This document shows positions 1,008 through 10,134 of a stretch of 33,508 bases of DNA, piece by piece. Position numbers and translations under genes: made by a program. Position 1 is the first letter of the stretch; every line of letters begins with the position of its first letter. The DNA is from a virus. Lineage: Duplodnaviria > Heunggongvirae > Uroviricota > Caudoviricetes. The notes beneath the pieces are model-generated. The model searched no databases and was not told the DNA's origin. It worked only from the letters and a program-made list of their open reading frames with translations. The DNA is taken from the IMG/VR virus record IMGVR_UViG_648276643_000011. One strand, 5' to 3'.

Positions 1008-1355
1008 TTACTTATCACATAAATCAAATGCAGCCTTAGTGACATCCCCCAGACTCTTTTTTAACCCTGGGGCGGCATCATTATCTAGCCAAAATGGATT
1101 ATTGTTATCTAACGGTAACGCACCAAATGTTTTACCTTTTATTCGAGCCAAACCTGTAAGTGCATATAACTTATTATCGTCAAAATTCATCACATAAGGA
1201 TTACCATCAAGACACTGTAATTGAACCTCATCAGTATTAAATGGCCATACCCCATTGAAACTCTCACGTTCAATAGTTTTAAAAGGCATTGCGACGGCGG
1301 AAAAAGAAAACATAGATAAAAAAGTAACTAATAGTTGAACCTTTTTTACTTTCAT
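1008..1355 (-). CDS. Secreted/periplasmic protein of unknown function, possibly DUF2511/YebY-like
   Basis: 115 aa ORF with N-terminal signal peptide (MKVKKVQLLVTFLSMFSFSAVA), strong RBS (GAGGT) upstream; pattern FN..EV.L.C..GN.YV...GK...LC recalled from YebY-type proteins (from memory, unverified). Moderately AT-rich. Confidence 0.55.
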   Translation of the reverse strand: MKVKKVQLLVTFLSMFSFSAVAMPFKTIERESFNGVWPFNTDEVQLQCLDGNPYVMNFDDNKLYALTGLARIKGKTFGALPLDNNNPFWLDNDAAPGLKKSLGDVTKAAFDLCDK

Positions 1356-1384
1356 ATCATTACCTCAATTTAGCTCAAGTAAGA

Positions 1385-2035
1385 TTACAAATTAAAAAAC
1401 GCCCTAGAAATGACACCGCCTACCAAAACCCCTACGCAGATAAAGAATATTATTTCTTTTGGATAAAGTCGGATTAATTCTGAAGCACGAAGTCGGACTT
1501 CTGGTAAGGTCGAACTCTCTGTGTGGCTTGATGCCGATTGTTGCTCTAACCACGACAATGCAGACTGTAACTGAGAACGAGTAAGATCGTTTAAACGTCC
1601 TGTACCGAAATTGATATGGCAATACCGCAGAAGTTTTTGTCGAAGTCCACAGTCTTCACTGTTACGTAGTAATAAACTTACAAGAGCCTTACAGGCATCA
1701 TGATCTTTACATCGCTCAAGCATTGCATGCAGAAAACTCTCCGCTGTTTTATATTGATTTACTGTCATATCATCAATACCAGCTACACCAATCTCCGCAT
1801 GTACTTTTTGCCAAATAATAAACGCTTCAGTATTGCTAGCTTCTGCAATAGCAGCAACCAAGCTATTTAGCTCCTTACGCTGAGCCTTAAGCAAAGGGCG
1901 ATCGTCATCATCATTATTCGAAGGGATTGCGATATTGACGGTATGAGAACCATCATATCGCTCTATCTGAATATTCTTTTCGTGAAAATCACGCCCAGCA
2001 ACGCGATTGTTTGAACCGTTTGAGTTGACGGCCAT
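1385..2035 (-). CDS. Hypothetical C-terminally membrane-anchored protein co-oriented with the repressor
   Basis: 216 aa ORF with strong RBS (GGGAGG) 7 nt upstream; single predicted TM helix at extreme C-terminus (IIFFICVGVLVGGVISRAFF); N-terminus carries motif SNNRVAGRDF that also ends the upstream repressor. Confidence 0.6.
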   Translation of the reverse strand: MAVNSNGSNNRVAGRDFHEKNIQIERYDGSHTVNIAIPSNNDDDDRPLLKAQRKELNSLVAAIAEASNTEAFIIWQKVHAEIGVAGIDDMTVNQYKTAESFLHAMLERCKDHDACKALVSLLLRNSEDCGLRQKLLRYCHINFGTGRLNDLTRSQLQSALSWLEQQSASSHTESSTLPEVRLRASELIRLYPKEIIFFICVGVLVGGVISRAFFNL

Positions 2036-2050
2036 GTCACCTCCCTACTA

Positions 2051-2455
2051 TCACCTACCCTTAGTTTCGTTATAGTCACGACCAGCGATACGGTTATTAC
2101 CACCAGAAATATTTAACTCACGTCCTGATGGCTGAGTTTCCTTTTCACTGATCGCACCTTTTAAAGCCCCAATCACCGCGTTTTTCACATCTAACGAAGC
2201 TGCTCGAAAGCGAGTAATCAATTCCTGCTCATCATCGTTATAAGTTTCAGGTGAGTGAATTCCCAACACAACATACTGAACATCAAGGCCAAAACGAGAC
2301 AGCGCTGCCAAATACGCAGCATCAGGAAAGCTATCTCCTTTCTCATATCTAAGCTGAGTTAGCTTTTTGACTCCACCAATGTCGCTCATGGCAACTTGAC
2401 TAAGTCCCAATCTTTCCCTTTCCTCACGCAACCGCTGACCAATATCATTTTTCAT
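2051..2455 (-). CDS. Immunity repressor, HTH XRE-family (C/CI position)
   Basis: 134 aa; N-terminal helix-turn-helix (QRLREERERLGLSQVAMSDIGGVKKLTQLRYEKG); divergent from the early operon as the lysogeny repressor is in P2/186-like phages. Confidence 0.75.
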   Translation of the reverse strand: MKNDIGQRLREERERLGLSQVAMSDIGGVKKLTQLRYEKGDSFPDAAYLAALSRFGLDVQYVVLGIHSPETYNDDEQELITRFRAASLDVKNAVIGALKGAISEKETQPSGRELNISGGNNRIAGRDYNETKGR

Positions 2456-3983: not shown

Positions 3984-4075
3984 CAGCTTAAACAAAACAC
4001 CAGATTAAACCCGAAAACCTGAAAACTATCCGCATTCGCGGAGGTATTCGCACACGTAAATAACGGAGATATAAA

Positions 4076-4492
4076 ATGAACGCAAAAGAAAAAAATATTA
4101 TCAATACATTAAAAATAGTGTCAGCAGAGCAAGACAAGCTGTCCAGGGCAGCCCAGAAAGATAATCAACATATGGCAGCGCTTTACGCACTGACCATCGC
4201 AATAGCCACCTCTGAAGCAGCCAAAGTTATTGAGGAACAGAGCAAAGAAATCGACACTCTTAAAACACAGTCAACAGTTGCAGCCATGAATCCGTCCAGC
4301 ATTGGACGCTGCATTTATATTCTTGGTTCAGCAATGATGCTGCAATACACCATTATTGCCGAACTGCACGGCAAATACCTGATAACGCCTTACCACACAA
4401 AAGAGTCAGAGCTTCTGACAAATCTCCGCCTGATAGAACGCTCTCAAGCTGTATTCATTGATGACGCGCAACGTGCCGTATTTAACGCATAG
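4076..4492 (+). CDS. Hypothetical protein, AT-rich moron in early operon
   Basis: 138 aa ORF, RBS GGAG upstream; markedly lower GC than flanking phage genes. Confidence 0.45.
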   Translation: MNAKEKNIINTLKIVSAEQDKLSRAAQKDNQHMAALYALTIAIATSEAAKVIEEQSKEIDTLKTQSTVAAMNPSSIGRCIYILGSAMMLQYTIIAELHGKYLITPYHTKESELLTNLRLIERSQAVFIDDAQRAVFNA

Positions 4493-4515
4493 GGTTACTG
4501 GACAAAGGGGGCGCA

Positions 4516-4719
4516 ATGGCAATTAAGCATTTTCCCGTCGTTCGCTTTACCTCCAGAGGGCGCGAATACGAGGTCGACGAACGCCTGATTACCACTATCG
4601 ACAAACATCGTTCGGAAAAGGATGCACACCACATCTACCTCACTGACGGCACTTACTTCTGCGCCACCAACGTGGCGCGAGTAAATCTTATCCGACAGGT
4701 ACAGGAGCCACGCAGATGA
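4516..4719 (+). CDS. Hypothetical early protein
   Basis: 67 aa, RBS AAGGGGG; start of a translationally coupled trio (ATGA overlaps). Confidence 0.4.
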   Translation: MAIKHFPVVRFTSRGREYEVDERLITTIDKHRSEKDAHHIYLTDGTYFCATNVARVNLIRQVQEPRR

Positions 4720-4982
4720 CCATTCTGGACTACATCGCTACTCATCCGGGGTGTAGCGGCGGAGAGATCGCCGCAGCACTGAATACCCCAACCACAGCCA
4801 TTAATGCTGAGTTACGCCGACTTTGGCGCGGCGGCTTAGTCATCAGAACAAACCGCAGCACAGGTGGTCGCGCTCGCAAAACAGGAGGCAAGGCTTCTTA
4901 CCACGTAAACCCGATGCCGTTCGGGTGTAGCAATCCACTTACTCACATGTTTAACCAGCTACTGAAGGAAGCCAGAGCATGA
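4716..4982 (+). CDS. Putative winged-helix DNA-binding protein
   Basis: 88 aa; ILDYIATHPGCSGGEIAAALNTPTTAINAELRRLWRGGLVIR resembles MarR/winged-helix recognition module. Confidence 0.45.
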   Translation: MTILDYIATHPGCSGGEIAAALNTPTTAINAELRRLWRGGLVIRTNRSTGGRARKTGGKASYHVNPMPFGCSNPLTHMFNQLLKEARA

Positions 4983-5278
4983 GCACCATCAACCACCAGA
5001 AGCTACGCGAACTGGCATTTGCCCTGCAACGAATGGCAACGCCTCAAAAATTACTGGCATTTCGCGCAATGCTCTCGCCGTCTGCTGTGCTGGCACTGCT
5101 GGATCAGCTGGAGCACGCCAGAACCACGGCTCCAGCCATTCGCCTCACGCTCCATCATGAAATCGCTGATTTCTGCGCAACGCTGGGGGCACCTGGCGAA
5201 CCGGAAACGCCGGAAGCAATGCAGCAAGAGCTGCTGCAACGCATCGATAACGTTTTTGATTTTTTTCTGAACCAGTAA
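4979..5278 (+). CDS. Hypothetical early protein
   Basis: 99 aa ORF translationally coupled to upstream gene. Confidence 0.45.
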   Translation: MSTINHQKLRELAFALQRMATPQKLLAFRAMLSPSAVLALLDQLEHARTTAPAIRLTLHHEIADFCATLGAPGEPETPEAMQQELLQRIDNVFDFFLNQ

Positions 5279-5367
5279 GAAACCAGAACATGCACACACA
5301 AAAAAACCGCTTGCCATGCCGCAATCGGTCAGGTTACATTTCCGCTGCACCTCATAAAACGGGTGCC

Positions 5368-5556
5368 GGGATTCTCAACCCGATACAGAGCAAAGCGCAT
5401 AACCGCGCTAGCGGTTTTTTTGTGCGTACTGTATTGCCACGTCTTTTTCGCGTCAGAATTATGGCGGGGCGTACGGGGCCGACTTCGGTCGGGCCGGATT
5501 CTTTGCTCTCCGGTGTTGAGAACCCTGTACGTCTCGCCACCCCGAGATTCTCAACT
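5368..5556 (+). ncRNA. Candidate structured cis-regulatory RNA / sRNA region in a 320 bp non-coding gap
   Basis: 28 nt arm 5368-5395 is near reverse complement of 5501-5525; embedded intrinsic terminator; UUCG-tetraloop GC hairpin 5475-5496; 11 bp outer stem 5463-5473 with 5528-5538; motif GATTCTCAAC three times (5370, inverted 5515, 5546). Strand assumed from flanking genes. Confidence 0.3.
5401..5423 (+). terminator. Rho-independent terminator
   Basis: AACCGC-GCTA-GCGGTT stem-loop followed by TTTTTTT. Confidence 0.55.
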
Positions 5557-5600
5557 CTGGATGGTGAGTTATTTCTATCACCGAGCAAAGAGGCCACACC

Positions 5601-5831
5601 ATGGCAGACCGCAAACAGCACCGCGCTATCGCGGAGCGTCGTCACATCCAGACTGAAATCAACCGCAGACTTTCCCGCGCATCACGCGTCGCGCAAATCA
5701 TGCACATCAATATGCTGCATGAGCGCAGCCACGCACTATCAAACATTTATTCCGCCTCTGTTTTCAGCTATCTGGCGGATGATCTGCACGAGTTTCAACA
5801 GCTCATCCAGCAGCAAAACAAACTCCATTAA
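5601..5831 (+). CDS. Hypothetical protein, predicted coiled-coil
   Basis: 76 aa, RBS AAGAGG 7 nt upstream. Confidence 0.45.
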   Translation: MADRKQHRAIAERRHIQTEINRRLSRASRVAQIMHINMLHERSHALSNIYSASVFSYLADDLHEFQQLIQQQNKLH

Positions 5832-5903
5832 TTCCTGTTCCGGGCCTTTCCTGCACCTTGCGGCGGGAGGCCTTCGCACATCTGTAACAAGAGGATTGCC
5901 GCA

Positions 5904-6269
5904 ATGATTCTCGCCAACGACTTTCTTGAATACCTGCTCAACACAGAACGTGATCTTGCCGCTCGCGTGCGTGATCGTTATGACATGTACCTGAAATCCC
6001 TGCCTGTACCGCAGCTCGCTGACGGAAAGATTGTTATTGATGGTCGCTACATGATTGACAGCCACGAGGGAAATTACAGGCTTTACCGCATTGAAGGTGG
6101 CACCCCGACCGTTATTGGCATTTACCAGCGCCCATCCTCTGCAATCGTCGATGTGATTGCCGACAGCATCCGCATCACACATCGCCATGCCGACACAGAA
6201 GACACCGTGCTGGAAATTCAGCGGCTGGCTACAGCCTGCCGCGACACCCTGAATGGCATGACGAAGTAA
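5904..6269 (+). CDS. Hypothetical protein preceding replication gene
   Basis: 121 aa, RBS AAGAGG. Confidence 0.45.
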   Translation: MILANDFLEYLLNTERDLAARVRDRYDMYLKSLPVPQLADGKIVIDGRYMIDSHEGNYRLYRIEGGTPTVIGIYQRPSSAIVDVIADSIRITHRHADTEDTVLEIQRLATACRDTLNGMTK

Positions 6270-6275
6270 ATCACT

Positions 6276-9098
6276 ATGACGGCAGAGTACATCAGGGACT
6301 GGCAACAACCGCGCCACGCAGTGGGGCGTGAAGGAACGGGGATCCCCGCTCCTGAATCTGCGCTTTCCTCCTGGCTGGATGCCTACCGGGCAGAGAACGA
6401 GCGCCGCCAGGAAATGGCTGATGCGGCGTTCTCCGCCACACCGCTGGGCAACCTGATTAATAAAAGCCTGGACGCACAGGAAAAACAGGACAAAGCCATC
6501 ACACTGGCAGGAGACGCCAGAAAACAGGCACGCGGCGCGGTGGATGAAGCCATGGCCTCGCTGCGCCTGCTGCCGTCCTATTTGCGCGATCCACTTATTC
6601 GTCACCTCTCCTTCCTGCGCAAAAAACAGGAAGCCGATCGCCGGAAAGGCAAAAAGAGCTGGCAGGCAGAACGCTATGCACGCGGAACCCTGCGCAAGAT
6701 ATTCGATCGCATAAACCGCACCGACAGCCGCTGGCTGACACCGGGTTATCGCTCCCTTGCCGGACGCGAACGCCTGGACGATTTGCTTTACCTGCCGCAG
6801 CTCAACAAGCACCAGATACAGACGCTGGCTACCATGACGGCGGCGATGTTCAGCAGCACCTTCGAAAAACTCTGCGATGGTTTTGGCGCGACCGATGGCG
6901 AGCTGACCATGGATGTAACCCTGAAGGCGTATCAGATGCTGGCCCGCATGGCGTTACACCTGCACGCCATGCCTCCACATTATGACGCACTGACAACAGA
7001 CAAAGACCGGAGGAACGAACCGGACACGGAGCTGCTGCCAGGCGCAATCCTTCGCCTGACCTGTGCGGAATGGTGGAAACGCAAACTGTGGCTGTTACGT
7101 TGTGAGTGGCGGGAAGAACAACTTCGCGCCGCCTGTCTGGTTTCCAGAAAAACATCGCCCTATCTGAGCCAGGACGCGTTAAGCGAGTTTCGCGCACAGC
7201 GCGAGAAAACACGCGATTTCCTGAAAAGTTTCATGCTGGAAAACGAAGACGGGTTCACGATTGATCTCGAGACAGTGTATTACGCGGGAGTAAGTAACCC
7301 GGTTCACCGTAAGGCAGAAATGATGGCCACCATGAAGGGGCTGGAACTTCTGGCCGAAGCCCGTGGCGACAAAGCGGTGTTTCTGACTGTCACCTGCCCG
7401 TCAAAATACCACGCCACAACAGAGAACGGTCATCCGAATCCCAAATGGAACGGGGCCACCATGCGCGACTCCAGCGATTACCTGGTTAACACGTTTTTTG
7501 CGGCGGTCCGCAAGAAACTGAACCGCGACGGCCTGCGCTGGTATGGCATCCGCACGGTGGAGCCTCACCATGACGGCACCGTGCACTGGCATATGATGGT
7601 CTTTGCTCATCCGGAAGAAATCGACACCATTGTGTCCCACACCCGTGATATTGCCATTCAGGAAGATCGTCACGAGCTGGGTGATGATATTACCCCACGC
7701 TTTAAGGCGGAGTACGTCGACGGCTCAAAAGGCACACCGACCAGCTACATCGCCACCTACATCGGGAAAAACCTGGACAGCCGTGCCGTGGATGGCATCG
7801 ACCCGAAAACGGGCAAGCCACGCGTTGACCACGAAACCGGAAAATCAATGGCCGAGAGCGTGGAACGCGCCATCGGCTGGGCGCGCCTTCACCGGGTCCG
7901 CCAGTTCCAGTTTTTTGGTATCCCCTCCCGTCAGGTGTGGCGTGAGCTGCGTCGCCTTGCCAGCCAGATGGCACGCAACCCGGAAGGCCCACAACGGCTG
8001 AAGGATGACGCAATGGATGCGGTTCTTGCTGCCGCTGATGCCGGATGTTTTGCCACCTACATAGAGAAACAGGGCGGCGTACTTGTTCCACGCAAGGACT
8101 ACCTGGTTCGCACCGCCTACGACCTCGCAGATGAACTGAATGATTACGGCGAACAGAGCGTACAGATTTACGGGATCTGGTCACCACTCATCGGGGAATC
8201 CTCTCGTGTGTGCACGCATCCGGATAACTGGAAGCTGGTAAGACGTAAACCGGAAACGGAAGACAGCGCCCGCGAAAATGGTTTTGACCTTCAGGGCGGC
8301 CCTGCCGCCCCTTGGACTCGTGGCAATAACTGTCCCCGTGTACAGGAAACGGACAACAACGGGACAGAACAGCCGGAAGAACGGCCAGCACCGTGGCCGC
8401 AGCTCCCTGACGGCGTTGAAGTGAACGAATGGATGCGCTCACTGAAACGGCACGAACGCCGGGCGCTGATGCGTTCGCTTCGTGACAAACAGGCAAAAAA
8501 CAGCAGTGATGAAATGCAGAGCTGGACACAGAGCCGCAAACAGCAGCGGCCTTTGCCTGATAACCACGAATTACTCGCTAAAGAATGGCGGGAGTCTGCT
8601 GAATCTCTCGGCCTGCATATCGGTGAACAACAGATGCAGCACCTGTTACGGGGCGGCAGTCTGTACGTTGACGGCAGCATCATTGCACCGCAGGGATTTG
8701 AAATTATACGCAAACCGGATACCCGCCCGGACAGCCGAATCACGCAGCTCTGGCAGCGCCTGAGCCGTAATCACGGCGTAAGCAGCACGGAGATCCGCCA
8801 TAACCCGGTCGCCAGCTATCTGGCACAGCTGGGGGCATCAGCCCCTGAAGCCGCCGCACGCCTGGCATCCACACTTCAGCAGGACCAGAACACCATGAAA
8901 ACACCCGTTACCGTGCTTTCTGACATGCTGCGCGCCATCCGCGACGCAGAGCACGCACAGAGAATCAGTGAAACCACTGAACGCGCCCGCCGCAAAGCAG
9001 ACCTGCTGCGGGGTGGCCTGACCAGTGGAAACAATAAACAGACAGAAACGGGACTCACGAATCCCGTAAATGAGCAAAAAACGCGCAGCGATATATGA
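6276..9098 (+). CDS. A: Replication initiation protein A (rolling-circle HUH endonuclease, P2 gpA family) with long C-terminal extension
   Basis: 940 aa; HUH-type motif VHWHMMVF and paired catalytic tyrosine motif TSYIATYIGKN as in P2 A; canonical position before the variable locus. Confidence 0.85.
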   Translation: MTAEYIRDWQQPRHAVGREGTGIPAPESALSSWLDAYRAENERRQEMADAAFSATPLGNLINKSLDAQEKQDKAITLAGDARKQARGAVDEAMASLRLLPSYLRDPLIRHLSFLRKKQEADRRKGKKSWQAERYARGTLRKIFDRINRTDSRWLTPGYRSLAGRERLDDLLYLPQLNKHQIQTLATMTAAMFSSTFEKLCDGFGATDGELTMDVTLKAYQMLARMALHLHAMPPHYDALTTDKDRRNEPDTELLPGAILRLTCAEWWKRKLWLLRCEWREEQLRAACLVSRKTSPYLSQDALSEFRAQREKTRDFLKSFMLENEDGFTIDLETVYYAGVSNPVHRKAEMMATMKGLELLAEARGDKAVFLTVTCPSKYHATTENGHPNPKWNGATMRDSSDYLVNTFFAAVRKKLNRDGLRWYGIRTVEPHHDGTVHWHMMVFAHPEEIDTIVSHTRDIAIQEDRHELGDDITPRFKAEYVDGSKGTPTSYIATYIGKNLDSRAVDGIDPKTGKPRVDHETGKSMAESVERAIGWARLHRVRQFQFFGIPSRQVWRELRRLASQMARNPEGPQRLKDDAMDAVLAAADAGCFATYIEKQGGVLVPRKDYLVRTAYDLADELNDYGEQSVQIYGIWSPLIGESSRVCTHPDNWKLVRRKPETEDSARENGFDLQGGPAAPWTRGNNCPRVQETDNNGTEQPEERPAPWPQLPDGVEVNEWMRSLKRHERRALMRSLRDKQAKNSSDEMQSWTQSRKQQRPLPDNHELLAKEWRESAESLGLHIGEQQMQHLLRGGSLYVDGSIIAPQGFEIIRKPDTRPDSRITQLWQRLSRNHGVSSTEIRHNPVASYLAQLGASAPEAAARLASTLQQDQNTMKTPVTVLSDMLRAIRDAEHAQRISETTERARRKADLLRGGLTSGNNKQTETGLTNPVNEQKTRSDI

Positions 9099-9145
9099 AG
9101 CGCGCACAAAACAGGCAAAAACGGGATTTCAGAATCCCGTAAACG
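9046..9145. repeat. Two copies of a 23 bp palindromic iteron (ACGGGA-N8-TCCCGTAAA), candidate ParR binding / centromere-like site
   Basis: Copy 1 at 9046-9073 inside the 3' end of gene A, copy 2 at 9117-9145 about 30 bp upstream of the parM-like start; each has a 6 bp inverted repeat. Confidence 0.4.
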
Positions 9146-9174
9146 ATTAATTAATCAACATAAGGAAAAGCGAC

Positions 9175-10134
9175 ATGAAAATTTGTATCGACGACGGCTC
9201 CACCAACATCAAGCTGGCATGGACTGAGAACGGCGAACGCCGCAACGCCATCAGCCCGAACAGCTTCAAGTCGGAATGGTCTGCGCCGTTCGGTGGCACG
9301 CAGCCCGCGAACTACATGCTTGATGGCGTGCGCTATGGTTTTGATCCTGTCAGCGATCGCTTTGTCCAGACGACCGACACGCAATACCAATACAGCGATG
9401 TGAATGTCATTGCCATTCATCACGCGCTGGTCAAATCAGGCATCACGCCACAGGAGGTGGATGTGGTTGTCACCCTGCCACTGAGCGAGTATTTCGACAC
9501 AAACGCACAGCCGGACATGGCCAACATCAACCGCAAAAAAGCGAACGTTATGCGCCCGGTGGAGTACCAGAACGGCAAAGCATTCACTATCCGTAACGTA
9601 CGGGTTATGCCTGAATCTATTCCGGCTGGCTTTAAAGCACTGGCTGACATGAGTCCGTTTGAATCCCTGCTGATTGTGGATTTAGGCGGAACCACGCTGG
9701 ATGTGGCAAAGGTTCAGGGACAACTGGCAGGTATCAGCCAGGTGTTTTGCGATCCACACGTAGGCGTTTCCCTGATGGCCGATGCAGTACTGTCGGTGAT
9801 GGCCACTAACGGTATGCGTACCAGTCACCACATCGCCAATACCATTATCGAACATCGCCATGATGAAGCTTGGCTGCGCCAGCACATCCACAATGACGCG
9901 CATTACGCCAGCCTGATGGCGGTTATTCGTGAAAAGGAAGAAACACTGAAACAACGCGTGATCCGCGCGCTGGCGGGTTTTTCGGGTTACGGGCGGGTGA
10001 TGGTTGTCGGTGGCGGAGCGGAGATTGTGGCACCCGCTATCCGCGAAGCCTGCGGGGTTAATGCGACTTTCATCGCGGACGGGGTGCCACAGTTTGCTCT
10101 GGTTAATGGGCTGTACGCAATGGACAAGGAGTAA
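9175..10134 (+). CDS. parM: ParM/StbA-family actin-like ATPase
   Basis: 319 aa; N-terminus MKICIDDGSTNIKLAW matches ParM phosphate-1 motif; further ParM-like blocks (YSDVNV.A.HHAL, MPESIPAG, LI.DLGGTTLD, GGGAE) alignable by eye to plasmid R1 ParM (from memory); RBS AAGGA. Confidence 0.8.
   Translation: MKICIDDGSTNIKLAWTENGERRNAISPNSFKSEWSAPFGGTQPANYMLDGVRYGFDPVSDRFVQTTDTQYQYSDVNVIAIHHALVKSGITPQEVDVVVTLPLSEYFDTNAQPDMANINRKKANVMRPVEYQNGKAFTIRNVRVMPESIPAGFKALADMSPFESLLIVDLGGTTLDVAKVQGQLAGISQVFCDPHVGVSLMADAVLSVMATNGMRTSHHIANTIIEHRHDEAWLRQHIHNDAHYASLMAVIREKEETLKQRVIRALAGFSGYGRVMVVGGGAEIVAPAIREACGVNATFIADGVPQFALVNGLYAMDKE

What the first reader, a model, noticed from the sequence alone, without database searches (positions are those of the whole stretch)
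5290..5600. Highly structured 320 bp non-coding region with long-range inverted repeats, an embedded terminator and a thrice-repeated GATTCTCAAC motif
Between two runs of tightly packed small genes lies the only large gap in the early operon. It holds a 28 nt arm (5368-5395) whose near reverse complement sits at 5501-5525, a canonical intrinsic terminator (5401-5423) between them, a UUCG-tetraloop hairpin (5475-5496) enclosed by an 11 bp outer stem (5463-5473 with 5528-5538), and three copies of GATTCTCAAC, one inverted. The mutually exclusive pairings look like a terminator/antiterminator switch or a stable sRNA, placed where it would gate transcription into the replication gene A.
Basis: seen in the sequence. 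Interest (0 to 1): 0.5.

Follow-up and report, generated by a model that had tools for sequence, protein, structure and literature searches.

The report
Antisense-RNA immunity cassette in P2-like prophage
The structured gap is a well-known kind of phage control module, a small C4/CI-type antisense RNA with its IsrK-type leader as in phages P1 and P4; here it sits inside the early operon of a P2-like E. coli prophage and most likely silences an anti-repressor-like gene just upstream of the replication gene.

Summary
The 322-nt gap (5279-5600) holds two Rfam families above their curated thresholds: an IsrK/SeqA-type leader RNA (5347-5421, ending in the intrinsic terminator) and a C4 antisense RNA (5457-5544). 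The "long-range inverted repeats" and the thrice-repeated motif are the family's recognition sites. Loops b' (5500-5509) and a' (5515-5524) of C4 are complementary to a1/b1 in the leader (5370-5379, 5387-5395) and to a2/b2 downstream (5546-5555, 5583-5591). Site b2 overlaps the Shine-Dalgarno of a 76-aa homologue of the P4 epsilon "derepression" protein (ATG 5601). Order and spacing match the annotated P1 c4-icd-ant region and the P4 seqA-CI-seqC-epsilon region.

In 80 related P88-like prophages the scaffold is nearly invariant, while the six sites vary together: 5 a-types and 8 b-types in 10 combinations, always self-complementary. These types assort independently of the protein repressor.

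The likely mechanism is antisense block of translation of the epsilon-like gene, with inferred polarity on replication gene A. It is a new, unannotated member of a known kind, present in about 22% of complete E. coli genomes.

The parts
5311..5340 (+). Sigma-70 promoter-like site (TTGCCA-18-TACATT). It would start transcription at about 5347, the first base of the isrK match. Its position is equivalent to P4 PLE and to P1 P1c4.
   Evidence: 9 of 12 consensus matches. Apart from a few spacer substitutions (one frequent, C/A) it is unchanged in 42 sequence variants. Function is inferred.
5347..5421 (+). IsrK/SeqA-type leader sRNA. Hairpin 1 is 5347-5366. Hairpin 2 is 5367-5382 and carries a1 in its loop. 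A single-stranded stretch carries b1. The RNA ends in an intrinsic terminator.
   Evidence: Rfam RF01394: 63 bits, threshold 50, full-length match. The MFE fold shows the three hairpins.
5370..5379 (+). a1, the upstream target copy for loop a' of C4 (GATTCTCAAC).
   Evidence: It covaries with a' and a2 across 5 allele types.
5387..5395 (+). b1, the upstream target copy for loop b' of C4 (AGAGCAAAG).
   Evidence: It covaries with b' and b2 across 8 allele types.
5401..5421 (+). Intrinsic terminator of the leader RNA (AACCGC-GCTA-GCGGTT followed by T7).
5463..5541 (+). C4/CI-type antisense RNA. The mature ends are placed by analogy with the annotated P1 c4 RNA; the Rfam match covers 5457-5544. 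It has an outer stem of 16-17 bp (5462/3-5478 with 5523-5538/9), a UUCG hairpin (5479-5492), a hairpin at 5493-5514 whose loop is b', an internal loop a', and a 3' tail ACC.
   Evidence: Rfam RF01695: 78.5 bits, threshold 45. The MFE fold is identical to the family structure, z = -4.9. On 18 diverse homologues 99.4% of cells are paired and 15 of 27 pairs carry compensatory changes.
5500..5509 (+). b' recognition loop (TCTTTGCTCT).
5515..5524 (+). a' recognition internal loop (GTTGAGAA, extending into CC).
5546..5555 (+). a2, the downstream target copy on the mRNA (GATTCTCAAC). It begins 5 nt after the inferred 3' end of C4.
5583..5593 (+). b2, the downstream target copy (GAGCAAAGA, 5583-5591). 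It overlaps the Shine-Dalgarno AGAGG (5589-5593), which lies 7 nt before ATG 5601.
   Evidence: In all b-types the site ends in the AG(A/G)GG Shine-Dalgarno.
5601..5831 (+). 76-aa homologue of the P4 epsilon helper-derepression (anti-repressor) protein. It is the gene whose translation start C4 would mask.
   Evidence: Pfam PF25738 'Derepression': 31.9 bits, threshold 27. BLASTP against P4 epsilon: 32% identity, E 6e-9. Annotated 'derepression protein' in phage P88.
5904..9098 (+). Downstream genes that could be affected by polarity: a 121-aa ORF of unknown function (5904-6269) and the replication initiator gene A (6276-9098).
   Evidence: Pfam Phage_GPA, E 1.9e-131; phrog_3237 of unknown function. 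The polar effect is inferred.
5294..5314 (+). Upstream arm specific to the P88-like lineage. It matches 19 of 21 positions as a complement of 5407-5427, which covers the terminator loop, the 3' half of the stem, the U-tract and 6 further nt. It is present only in transcripts that come from the early promoter upstream.
   Evidence: repeat I1. The fold of 5285-5430 replaces the terminator with this helix, whereas 5347-5430 forms the terminator. The arm is absent from P4, P1 and the lambdoid homologues. There is no covariation, so its function is speculative.

Best explanation
The gap encodes an RNA-based immunity / anti-immunity cassette of the P1 c4 and P4 CI type.

Proposed sequence of events:
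1. An internal promoter (about 5311-5340) makes a roughly 75-nt IsrK/SeqA-type leader RNA. This RNA displays the sites a1 and b1 and mostly ends at the intrinsic terminator (5401-5421).
2. Transcripts that read through the terminator, and transcripts arriving from the early promoter upstream, contain the C4 RNA (about 5463-5541). C4 is a tRNA-acceptor-like hairpin with a 3' ACC tail. In P1 and P4 the equivalent RNA is cut out by RNase P.
3. The two exposed loops of C4, b' and a', pair with a2 and b2 on the mRNA immediately downstream.
4. Because b2 overlaps the Shine-Dalgarno sequence, the 76-aa epsilon-like anti-repressor gene (ATG 5601) is not translated.
5. The untranslated mRNA is then expected to suffer Rho-dependent polarity, which would lower expression of the 121-aa ORF and of replication gene A.
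6. The a1/b1 copy in the leader serves as a decoy or competitor for C4, as shown for Gifsy-1 IsrK, and/or as a site where C4 promotes termination, as proposed for P4.

The a/b sequences are the specificity determinant, and different prophages carry different self-matching sets.

Shown here: family membership, structure, the site layout, three-way covariation, and the identity of the downstream gene.
Inferred: promoter use, processing, the translational block, the polarity on A, and the biological target of the epsilon-like protein.
For: Family membership. Two Rfam matches exceed their gathering scores: C4 78.5/45 and isrK 63/50.

Structure. The C4 fold equals the family consensus. On 18 homologues from P88-likes, P4-likes, lambdoid phages and P1, 99.4% of cells are paired and 15 of 27 pairs show compensatory changes; slid controls give 33-46% paired.

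Layout. The order promoter, a1, b1, terminator, C4, a2, b2, then start codon about 10 nt later matches the experimentally annotated P1 record. There a1 is 48255-61, b1 48269-76, c4 48343-48419, a2 48423-29, b2 48452-59 and icd 48470. P4 has the same layout: isrK 8615-8692, C4 8420-8507, and b2 overlapping the AGGAGG of a 65-aa ORF that is coupled to epsilon.

Conservation and covariation. All 80 IMG/VR relatives carry the module. In the 42 sequence variants, 47 of the 74 site positions vary, against 63 of 216 positions elsewhere. There are 5 a' alleles and 8 b' alleles in 10 combinations. Own-locus complementarity is 7-8 nt for a and at least 9 nt for b1. Loci with a different allele average about 4 nt.

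Downstream gene. It is a P4-epsilon homologue.

Independence from the protein repressor. The same protein repressor occurs with three RNA types, and the window's RNA type occurs with both repressor families tested and in loci where neither was detected. This parallels immC and immI in P1.

Published mechanism in homologues. Gifsy-1 IsrK/STnc1160/AnrP is described in PMC4825925. The equivalence of IsrK with seqA and of C4 with CI is stated in PMC3632133.
Against: No expression, processing or termination data exist for this prophage lineage.

The promoter call is a 9/12 consensus match only.

The c4-a1b1 Rfam model scores only 15.9 bits against a threshold of 46.7.

Polarity on gene A is weakened by the 72-nt gap between the epsilon-like ORF and the next ORF, and by the lack of evident translational coupling.

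The epsilon-like protein is 89-100% conserved across prophages that carry different repressors. Whether it antagonises its own repressor is therefore unknown.

In the lytic cycle, early-promoter transcripts must somehow pass both the terminator and C4 control to express A. How they do so is unresolved.
Confidence: 0.85

Rival explanations
1. A purely cis-acting terminator/antiterminator attenuator. Alternative pairings within one nascent transcript decide whether RNA polymerase stops at 5421 or continues to gene A, with no trans-acting small RNA involved.
For: An intrinsic terminator sits in the leader. With the upstream arm 5294-5314 included, the MFE fold replaces the terminator with a long-range helix; without it, the terminator forms. 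In the Gifsy-1 homologue, cis pairing between the IsrK segment and the C4-homologous segment gives alternative conformers (PMC4825925).
Against: The same sites occur a third time downstream, at the ribosome-binding site, and all three copies covary; a cis attenuator does not need this. The central element is a bona fide C4 RNA. The 5294-5314 arm pairs with the 3' half of the stem and the U-tract, which emerge last, so it is kinetically unfavourable. It shows no covariation and is absent from P1, P4 and the lambdoid homologues.
Confidence: 0.1
2. The region encodes a protein: the 205-aa ORF 5290-5907, or an 'Ash family' protein as annotated in some related records. On this reading the repeats are incidental.
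For: ORFs of 97-205 aa span the gap on both strands. Pfam Phage_ASH gives a weak match, E 0.0027. Related records carry 'hypothetical protein' or 'similar to ash family protein' at this position.
Against: The Pfam score of 18.6 is below its threshold of 26. Variable sites show no codon periodicity in any of the three ORF frames (33/40/37), unlike the neighbouring real ORF (16/16/24). Substitutions cluster in mutually complementary RNA sites. The Phage_ASH family itself matches the translation of the old P4 'cI' ORF, which contains the C4-family match (the RNA that PMC3632133 calls CI RNA).
Confidence: 0.02
3. A decayed, non-functional remnant of a C4 module, acquired by recombination with a P4-like satellite or a lambdoid phage.
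For: The module is mobile between phage types: P2-like, P4-like, lambdoid and P1.
Against: All 80 relatives keep it intact at 82-100% identity. Every allele type keeps a'/a1/a2 and b'/b1/b2 complementarity, which requires ongoing selection. The match is full-length and high-scoring against both RNA models.
Confidence: 0.03

Closest known systems
Phage P1/P7 immI region: c4 antisense RNA - icd - ant (Citron & Schuster 1990, cited in PMC2864571 and PMC12197685; annotated in NC_005856)
   Same: The order is the same: promoter, a1, b1, intrinsic terminator-like hairpin, C4 RNA of 77-79 nt, a2 starting 4-5 nt after C4, and b2 over the Shine-Dalgarno about 10 nt before the first ORF. The C4 fold is the same, as are the 5' context GAAUUAU|GG and the 3' GCCACC. 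The a/b sequences define heteroimmunity types (P1 versus P7, from established knowledge). The controlled operon encodes an anti-repressor.
   Different: In P1 the first ORF is icd, translationally coupled to ant. Here the first ORF is itself a P4-epsilon homologue. The cassette here lies 2.7 kb inside the early operon of a P2-like phage, just upstream of the replication gene, not in a separate operon under C1 control.
Satellite phage P4 immunity: PLE - seqA - CI RNA (seqB) - seqC - epsilon - orf151 - alpha (Ghisotti 1992, Sabbattini 1995, Briani 2000, Forti 2002; equivalence to IsrK/C4 stated in PMC3632133 and PMC4825925)
   Same: The same two Rfam families occur in the same order: isrK 60.8 bits and C4 74.9 bits. 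An epsilon-family gene and then the replication gene lie downstream. b2 overlaps a Shine-Dalgarno sequence. The population shows the same reassorting a/b polymorphism, with 3 a-types and at least 6 b-types.
   Different: P4 has an extra 65-aa ORF between b2 and epsilon. Its replication protein is the alpha primase-helicase rather than a GPA rolling-circle initiator. The spacer between the leader and CI is 107 nt, against about 40 nt here. The polarity of the a site is reversed (a' is UUCUCAC in P4 and GUUGAGAA here). In P4 the RNA is the only immunity factor, whereas this phage also has a protein repressor (2051-2455).
Salmonella Gifsy-1 IsrK - STnc1160/'orf45' - AnrP (PMC4825925)
   Same: An IsrK sRNA with its own promoter and a leaky terminator. 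A processed stable RNA lies downstream, in the position that the C4 RNA occupies in this window. An anti-repressor-like gene is silent unless IsrK is supplied in trans. IsrK pairs with the downstream segment.
   Different: The context is lambdoid. The anti-repressor is a different protein family. The published model stresses activation by IsrK rather than repression by the C4-like RNA.
Lambdoid / Stx prophage isrK-C4 modules upstream of Rha-family or anti-repressor genes
   Same: About 71-74% nucleotide identity to the window's module, with both Rfam families present.
   Different: The downstream gene is a Rha/Ant-type regulator, and the module is not next to a replication initiator.

Membership tests
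C4 antisense RNA (Rfam RF01695; P1 c4 / P4 CI) | Covariance-model score at or above the curated gathering score, over the full length of the model | tested here: met
   78.5 bits against 45, model positions 1-87 of 87, E 6e-14.
C4 antisense RNA (Rfam RF01695; P1 c4 / P4 CI) | Long outer stem enclosing two hairpins and an internal loop, supported by covariation | tested here: met
   The MFE fold equals the consensus. On 18 homologues 99.4% of cells are paired and 15 of 27 pairs have double changes; shifted controls give 33-46%.
C4 antisense RNA (Rfam RF01695; P1 c4 / P4 CI) | Loops a' and b' complementary to a2 and b2 on the downstream mRNA, with b2 at the ribosome-binding site of the first ORF | tested here: met
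   a' 5515-5524 with a2 5546-5555. b' 5500-5508 with b2 5583-5591, which overlaps the Shine-Dalgarno 5589-5593; ATG at 5601. Complementarity is kept in all 10 allele combinations.
C4 antisense RNA (Rfam RF01695; P1 c4 / P4 CI) | A second, upstream copy of the targets (a1, b1) | tested here: met
   a1 5370-5379 and b1 5387-5395. Both covary with a' and b'.
C4 antisense RNA (Rfam RF01695; P1 c4 / P4 CI) | Mature RNA of about 77 nt released from a longer precursor by RNase P | not testable with these tools
   Only the substrate-like features are visible: the acceptor-like stem, the 3' ACC and the conserved GAAUUAU|GG 5' context.
C4 antisense RNA (Rfam RF01695; P1 c4 / P4 CI) | Controls an anti-repressor / anti-immunity gene | tested here: met
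   The downstream ORF belongs to Pfam 'Derepression' (31.9 bits against 27) and is 32% identical to P4 epsilon, E 6e-9. Its activity was not tested.
isrK / P4 SeqA leader RNA (Rfam RF01394) | Covariance-model score at or above the gathering score; two 5' hairpins plus a Rho-independent terminator | tested here: met
   63 bits against 50, model positions 1-77 of 77. Hairpins and terminator appear.
isrK / P4 SeqA leader RNA (Rfam RF01394) | Own promoter, partial read-through of the terminator, Hfq binding | tested here: inconclusive
   A promoter-like site lies at the right distance and is conserved. Read-through and Hfq binding cannot be tested in silico.
c4-a1b1 motif (Rfam RF03163) | Covariance-model score at or above the gathering score | tested here: not met
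   15.9 bits against 46.7. P4 itself scores 44.1, also below threshold. The same bases are covered by the isrK model, so the a1/b1 element is present, but it is not a member of this particular model.
P4-type immunity by antisense-RNA-dependent premature termination of the replication operon | The RNA causes transcription to stop before the replication gene | not testable with these tools
   The layout is compatible: C4, then the epsilon-like ORF, then a further ORF, then gene A. No termination data exist.
Classical cis attenuator (terminator/antiterminator) | An alternative stem that overlaps the terminator stem and is mutually exclusive with it | tested here: inconclusive
A different arm, 5294-5314, does overlap it in MFE folds, but it shows no covariation and is restricted to this lineage.

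The most novel reading that the evidence does not exclude
P2-like helper phages of the P88 group carry the same RNA-immunity hardware as their P4-like satellites, with two additions.

(i) A lineage-specific upstream arm (5294-5314) lets transcripts from the early promoter, but not those from the internal promoter, bypass the leader terminator. Termination would then depend on which promoter the transcript came from.

(ii) The a' loops have the opposite polarity to those of P4-like CI RNAs. Examples are helper GUGGAAA against satellite UUUCCAC, and the window's GUUGAGAA against P4's UUCUCAC. Helper and satellite immunity RNAs could therefore pair with each other or with each other's targets, giving RNA-level cross-talk in the helper-satellite conflict.
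Probability: 0.1. Interest if true: 0.6.

Novelty: new member of a known kind. Interest (0 to 1): 0.3.

Why it matters
The module is unannotated, or mis-annotated as a hypothetical or 'ash' protein, in RefSeq and phage records. A match covering at least 80% of it occurs in 1203 of 5426 complete E. coli genomes, including O157:H7 chromosomes that are 100% identical.

Recognising it adds a second, RNA-encoded immunity layer to a large group of P2-like prophages. That layer can be typed from two short motifs. The typing should predict which prophages and superinfecting relatives are homo- or hetero-immune, and therefore which combinations trigger anti-repressor expression and induction.

It also places P4-type control of the epsilon and replication genes inside a helper-type phage, which bears on how helpers and satellites exchange regulatory parts. 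None of this changes the known mechanism class.

Tried and rejected
- Protein-coding reading of the gap. Pfam, NCBIfam and PHROGs searches of the overlapping ORFs gave only a sub-threshold Phage_ASH match, and there is no codon periodicity. Rejected.
- Homology of the second downstream ORF (5904-6269) to P4 orf151. None found, E 0.16. PADLOC and NCBIfam gave nothing.
- Satellites with exactly the window's b'+a' sequence. All 39 IMG/VR matches are P2-like (epsilon-like gene plus GPA) and none carries the P4 alpha gene, so there is no direct evidence of specificity shared with satellites.
- A small 'antiterminator' hairpin overlapping b1 and the 5' half of the terminator (5394-5409). Analogous weak hairpins form in truncated folds of all lineages, but they are only 4-5 GC-rich pairs that could arise by chance. 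I did not build on it.
- A second promoter-like site at 5434-5462. Its -10 hexamer is the conserved GAAUUAU leader of C4, shared with P1, and its -35 hexamer varies among relatives. It is treated as doubtful.
- Literature. I found no paper describing this module in P88-like or P2-like phages.
- MAFFT alignment of the terminator region across lineages. It did not keep the 3' arms in register, so the outer helix was tabulated from individual folds instead.

Full report
CONTEXT. The window is a complete P2-like prophage of the P88 group (genus Xuanwuvirus, family Peduoviridae). Bases 4000-9200 are 96% identical to phage vB_EcoM-569R5 and 94% identical to P88. The gap region is 100% identical to E. 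coli O157:H7 chromosomes.

The left end encodes an integrase and, on the minus strand, an HTH repressor (2051-2455). From 2531 a tightly packed rightward early operon runs to replication gene A (6276-9098; Phage_GPA, E 1.9e-131). The only large gap in that operon is 5279-5600.

CHECKING THE OBSERVATION.
- The '28-nt arm' is two separate complementary blocks.
- The stem that encloses the UUCG hairpin is 17 bp, not 11 bp.
- The third GATTCTCAAC copy has one mismatch.
- A further copy of the second motif at 5583-5591, over the next gene's ribosome-binding site, was missed.

Motif counts alone are not striking: 3 found against 1.9 expected for GATTCTCAAC with one mismatch. The clustering, the folding z-scores of about -4.8, and above all the comparative data below show that the pattern is not chance.

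WHAT IT IS. An Rfam scan gives two matches above the curated thresholds: isrK (RF01394) at 5347-5421 with 63 bits against 50, and C4 antisense RNA (RF01695) at 5457-5544 with 78.5 bits against 45.

The repeats are the recognition system of this family. C4 presents loop b' (5500-5509) and internal loop a' (5515-5524). Their complements occur upstream in the leader (a1 5370-5379 in the loop of hairpin 2; b1 5387-5395 in a single-stranded stretch). They occur again downstream on the mRNA (a2 5546-5555; b2 5583-5591). Site b2 overlaps the Shine-Dalgarno AGAGG (5589-5593), which lies 7 nt before ATG 5601.

The richly annotated P1 record shows the same order and nearly the same spacing: promoters P2c4/P1c4, a1, b1, c4 RNA, a2, b2, then icd 11 nt later. 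P4 shows it too. Its isrK match (= seqA) is at 8615-8692 and its C4 match (= CI RNA) is at 8420-8507. Its b2 overlaps the AGGAGG of a 65-aa ORF that overlaps the start of epsilon.

The gene after b2 in the window is a homologue of P4 epsilon, the helper-derepression protein. It scores 31.9 bits against 27 on Pfam PF25738 and is 32% identical to P4 epsilon by BLASTP, E 6e-9. The window thus carries the whole P4-style unit of leader, CI/C4 RNA, epsilon-family gene and replication gene. The replication gene, however, is the P2-type A.

COMPARATIVE EVIDENCE. All 80 IMG/VR contigs that encode the 76-aa protein carry the module at 82-100% identity.

Aligning the 42 distinct versions shows an almost invariant scaffold. 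Substitutions are concentrated in the six sites: 47 of 74 site positions vary, against 63 of 216 elsewhere. There are 5 a' alleles and 8 b' alleles in 10 combinations. These include obvious reassortants; for example L081 combines the a of L048 with the b of L079.

Within each locus, a' matches a1 and a2 over 7-8 nt, and b' matches b1 over 9 nt and b2 over 7-11 nt. Between loci with different alleles the mean longest match is about 4 nt. This three-way covariation is strong evidence that the pairings are the selected function.

P4-like satellites show the same behaviour, with 3 a-types and at least 6 b-types.

The C4 secondary structure is independently supported on 18 sequences from P88-likes, P4-likes, lambdoid phages and P1. 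In that set 99.4% of cells are paired and 15 of 27 pairs carry compensatory changes, while shifted controls give 33-46% paired.

The RNA type assorts independently of the protein repressor. One repressor type (99-100% identical) occurs with three RNA types, and the window's RNA type occurs with both repressor families tested and in loci where neither was detected. This is the arrangement known from P1, which has two independent immunity determinants, immC and immI.

MECHANISM. From the anatomy and the homologues, C4 most likely masks the ribosome-binding site of the epsilon-like gene.

The leader RNA (IsrK/SeqA type) carries a decoy copy of the targets. In Gifsy-1, IsrK supplied in trans activates translation of the downstream anti-repressor operon by pairing with the segment downstream of it (orf45/STnc1160), which occupies the position C4 has here. 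Its authors suggest that the processed STnc1160 RNA may act like P4 CI (PMC4825925). In P4, the CI RNA pairing with seqA and seqC causes premature termination that keeps the replication operon off (as summarised in PMC4825925 and PMC3632133).

By analogy, silencing of the 5601 ORF here would also reduce transcription into gene A through polarity. That step is inferred. It is the weakest link, because a 72-nt untranslated gap and a separate 121-aa ORF intervene.

Promoter use (5311-5340) and RNase P processing are also inferred. They rest on positional equivalence and on conserved substrate-like features: the GAAUUAU|GG 5' context and the GCCACC 3' end shared with P1.

'Stable sRNA' is right, and 'gates expression toward A' is plausible. 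The proposed mutually exclusive cis pairings are not a classical attenuator, because the arms do not touch the terminator stem.

Two additional structures bear on termination.
- The 7-9 nt after b1 pair with the 7-9 nt after the U-tract in all six lineages examined, with different sequences in each: GCGCAUA/UGUGCGU here, GCGACAUA/UGUGUCGC in P4, and UGCGGACA/UGUCCGUA in P1. This conserved helix exists only in read-through RNA and is not part of the Rfam model.
- In P88-like phages only, 5294-5314 is a 19/21 complement of 5407-5427. In silico it replaces the terminator hairpin when the transcript starts upstream, but not when it starts at 5347. This could let early-promoter transcripts read through. 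It lacks covariation, and it is kinetically awkward because it pairs with the last-transcribed half of the terminator.

ALTERNATIVES REJECTED. A protein-coding reading fails. There is no codon periodicity (33/40/37), and the Phage_ASH match is sub-threshold. That Pfam family itself matches the translation of the old P4 'cI' ORF, which contains the C4-family match. A decayed relic is excluded by the maintained complementarity in every allele type.

NOVELTY. The kind is well known from P1/P7 c4, P4 CI, N15 and Gifsy-1 IsrK. Barquist et al. already speak of an 'IsrK-C4 immunity system' (PMC3632133).

I found no description of it in P88-like or P2-like phages. It is unannotated or mis-annotated in the records. 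A match covering at least 80% of the module occurs in 1203 of 5426 complete E. coli genomes.

It is therefore a new member of a known kind. Three features are of interest: the population-level matrix of reassorting specificities, its placement inside a helper-type phage next to gene A, and two uncharacterised helices around the leader terminator.

Noticed in passing
window 5395-5401 with 5421-5427; also L003 (P4), L204, L205, L206, L207 (P1): A helix between the bases just 3' of b1 and the bases just 3' of the leader's U-tract is present in six lineages. Its sequence differs in each while staying complementary. It encloses the terminator, can exist only in read-through RNA, and is not part of the Rfam isrK model.
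   Followed up: partly
window 5294-5314 versus 5407-5427: A 21-nt inverted repeat (19/21) brackets the whole leader RNA and overlaps the 3' half of the terminator and the U-tract. The core ACAAAAAAACCGC is conserved in all P88-like variants. The repeat is absent from P4, P1 and the lambdoid homologues. It may act as a promoter-dependent anti-terminator.
   Followed up: partly
L004-L083 (IMG/VR relatives), regions equivalent to window 2051-2455 and 5498-5524: The C4 a'/b' specificity type and the protein repressor type assort independently. One repressor occurs with three RNA types, and one RNA type occurs with both repressor families tested and in loci where neither was detected.
   Followed up: yes
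L123-L202 (P4-like satellites) versus L004-L083 (P88-like): The polarity of the a site is reversed between the groups. P4-like a' alleles are UUCUCAC, UUUCCAC and UUCCUAC; P88-like a' alleles include GUUGAGAA and GUGGAAA. Helper and satellite RNAs are therefore complementary to each other over 6-7 nt at a'. The b sites are unrelated. Lambdoid members occur with either polarity (phi346 GUGAGAA, E. coli 222 UUUCCAC).
   Followed up: partly
L003 8168-8584 (-) and window 5290-5907 (+): Pfam family Phage_ASH (PF10554) matches the translation of the old P4 'cI protein' ORF (E 4e-16), which contains the C4-family match (the RNA called CI RNA in PMC3632133). It matches the window's spurious ORF weakly. 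The protein family appears to be built, at least in part, on an RNA gene, and it drives 'ash family protein' annotations in genomes.
   Followed up: partly
window 1008-2035 (-): Two cargo ORFs lie between the integrase and the repressor: 115 aa (DUF2511) and 216 aa (no Pfam family). Neither matched a PADLOC model. This could be an accessory or moron locus.
   Followed up: partly
window 6276-9098: The replication protein A is 940 aa. The Phage_GPA domain covers only residues 179-503, so there is a long C-terminal extension of unknown function.
   Followed up: no
L206 2217-2268: In a lambdoid E. coli prophage, a DicF RNA (RF00039, 61 bits) lies about 230 nt upstream of the isrK-C4 module, and dicB follows the Rha gene. 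Two prophage small-RNA systems are therefore adjacent.
   Followed up: no
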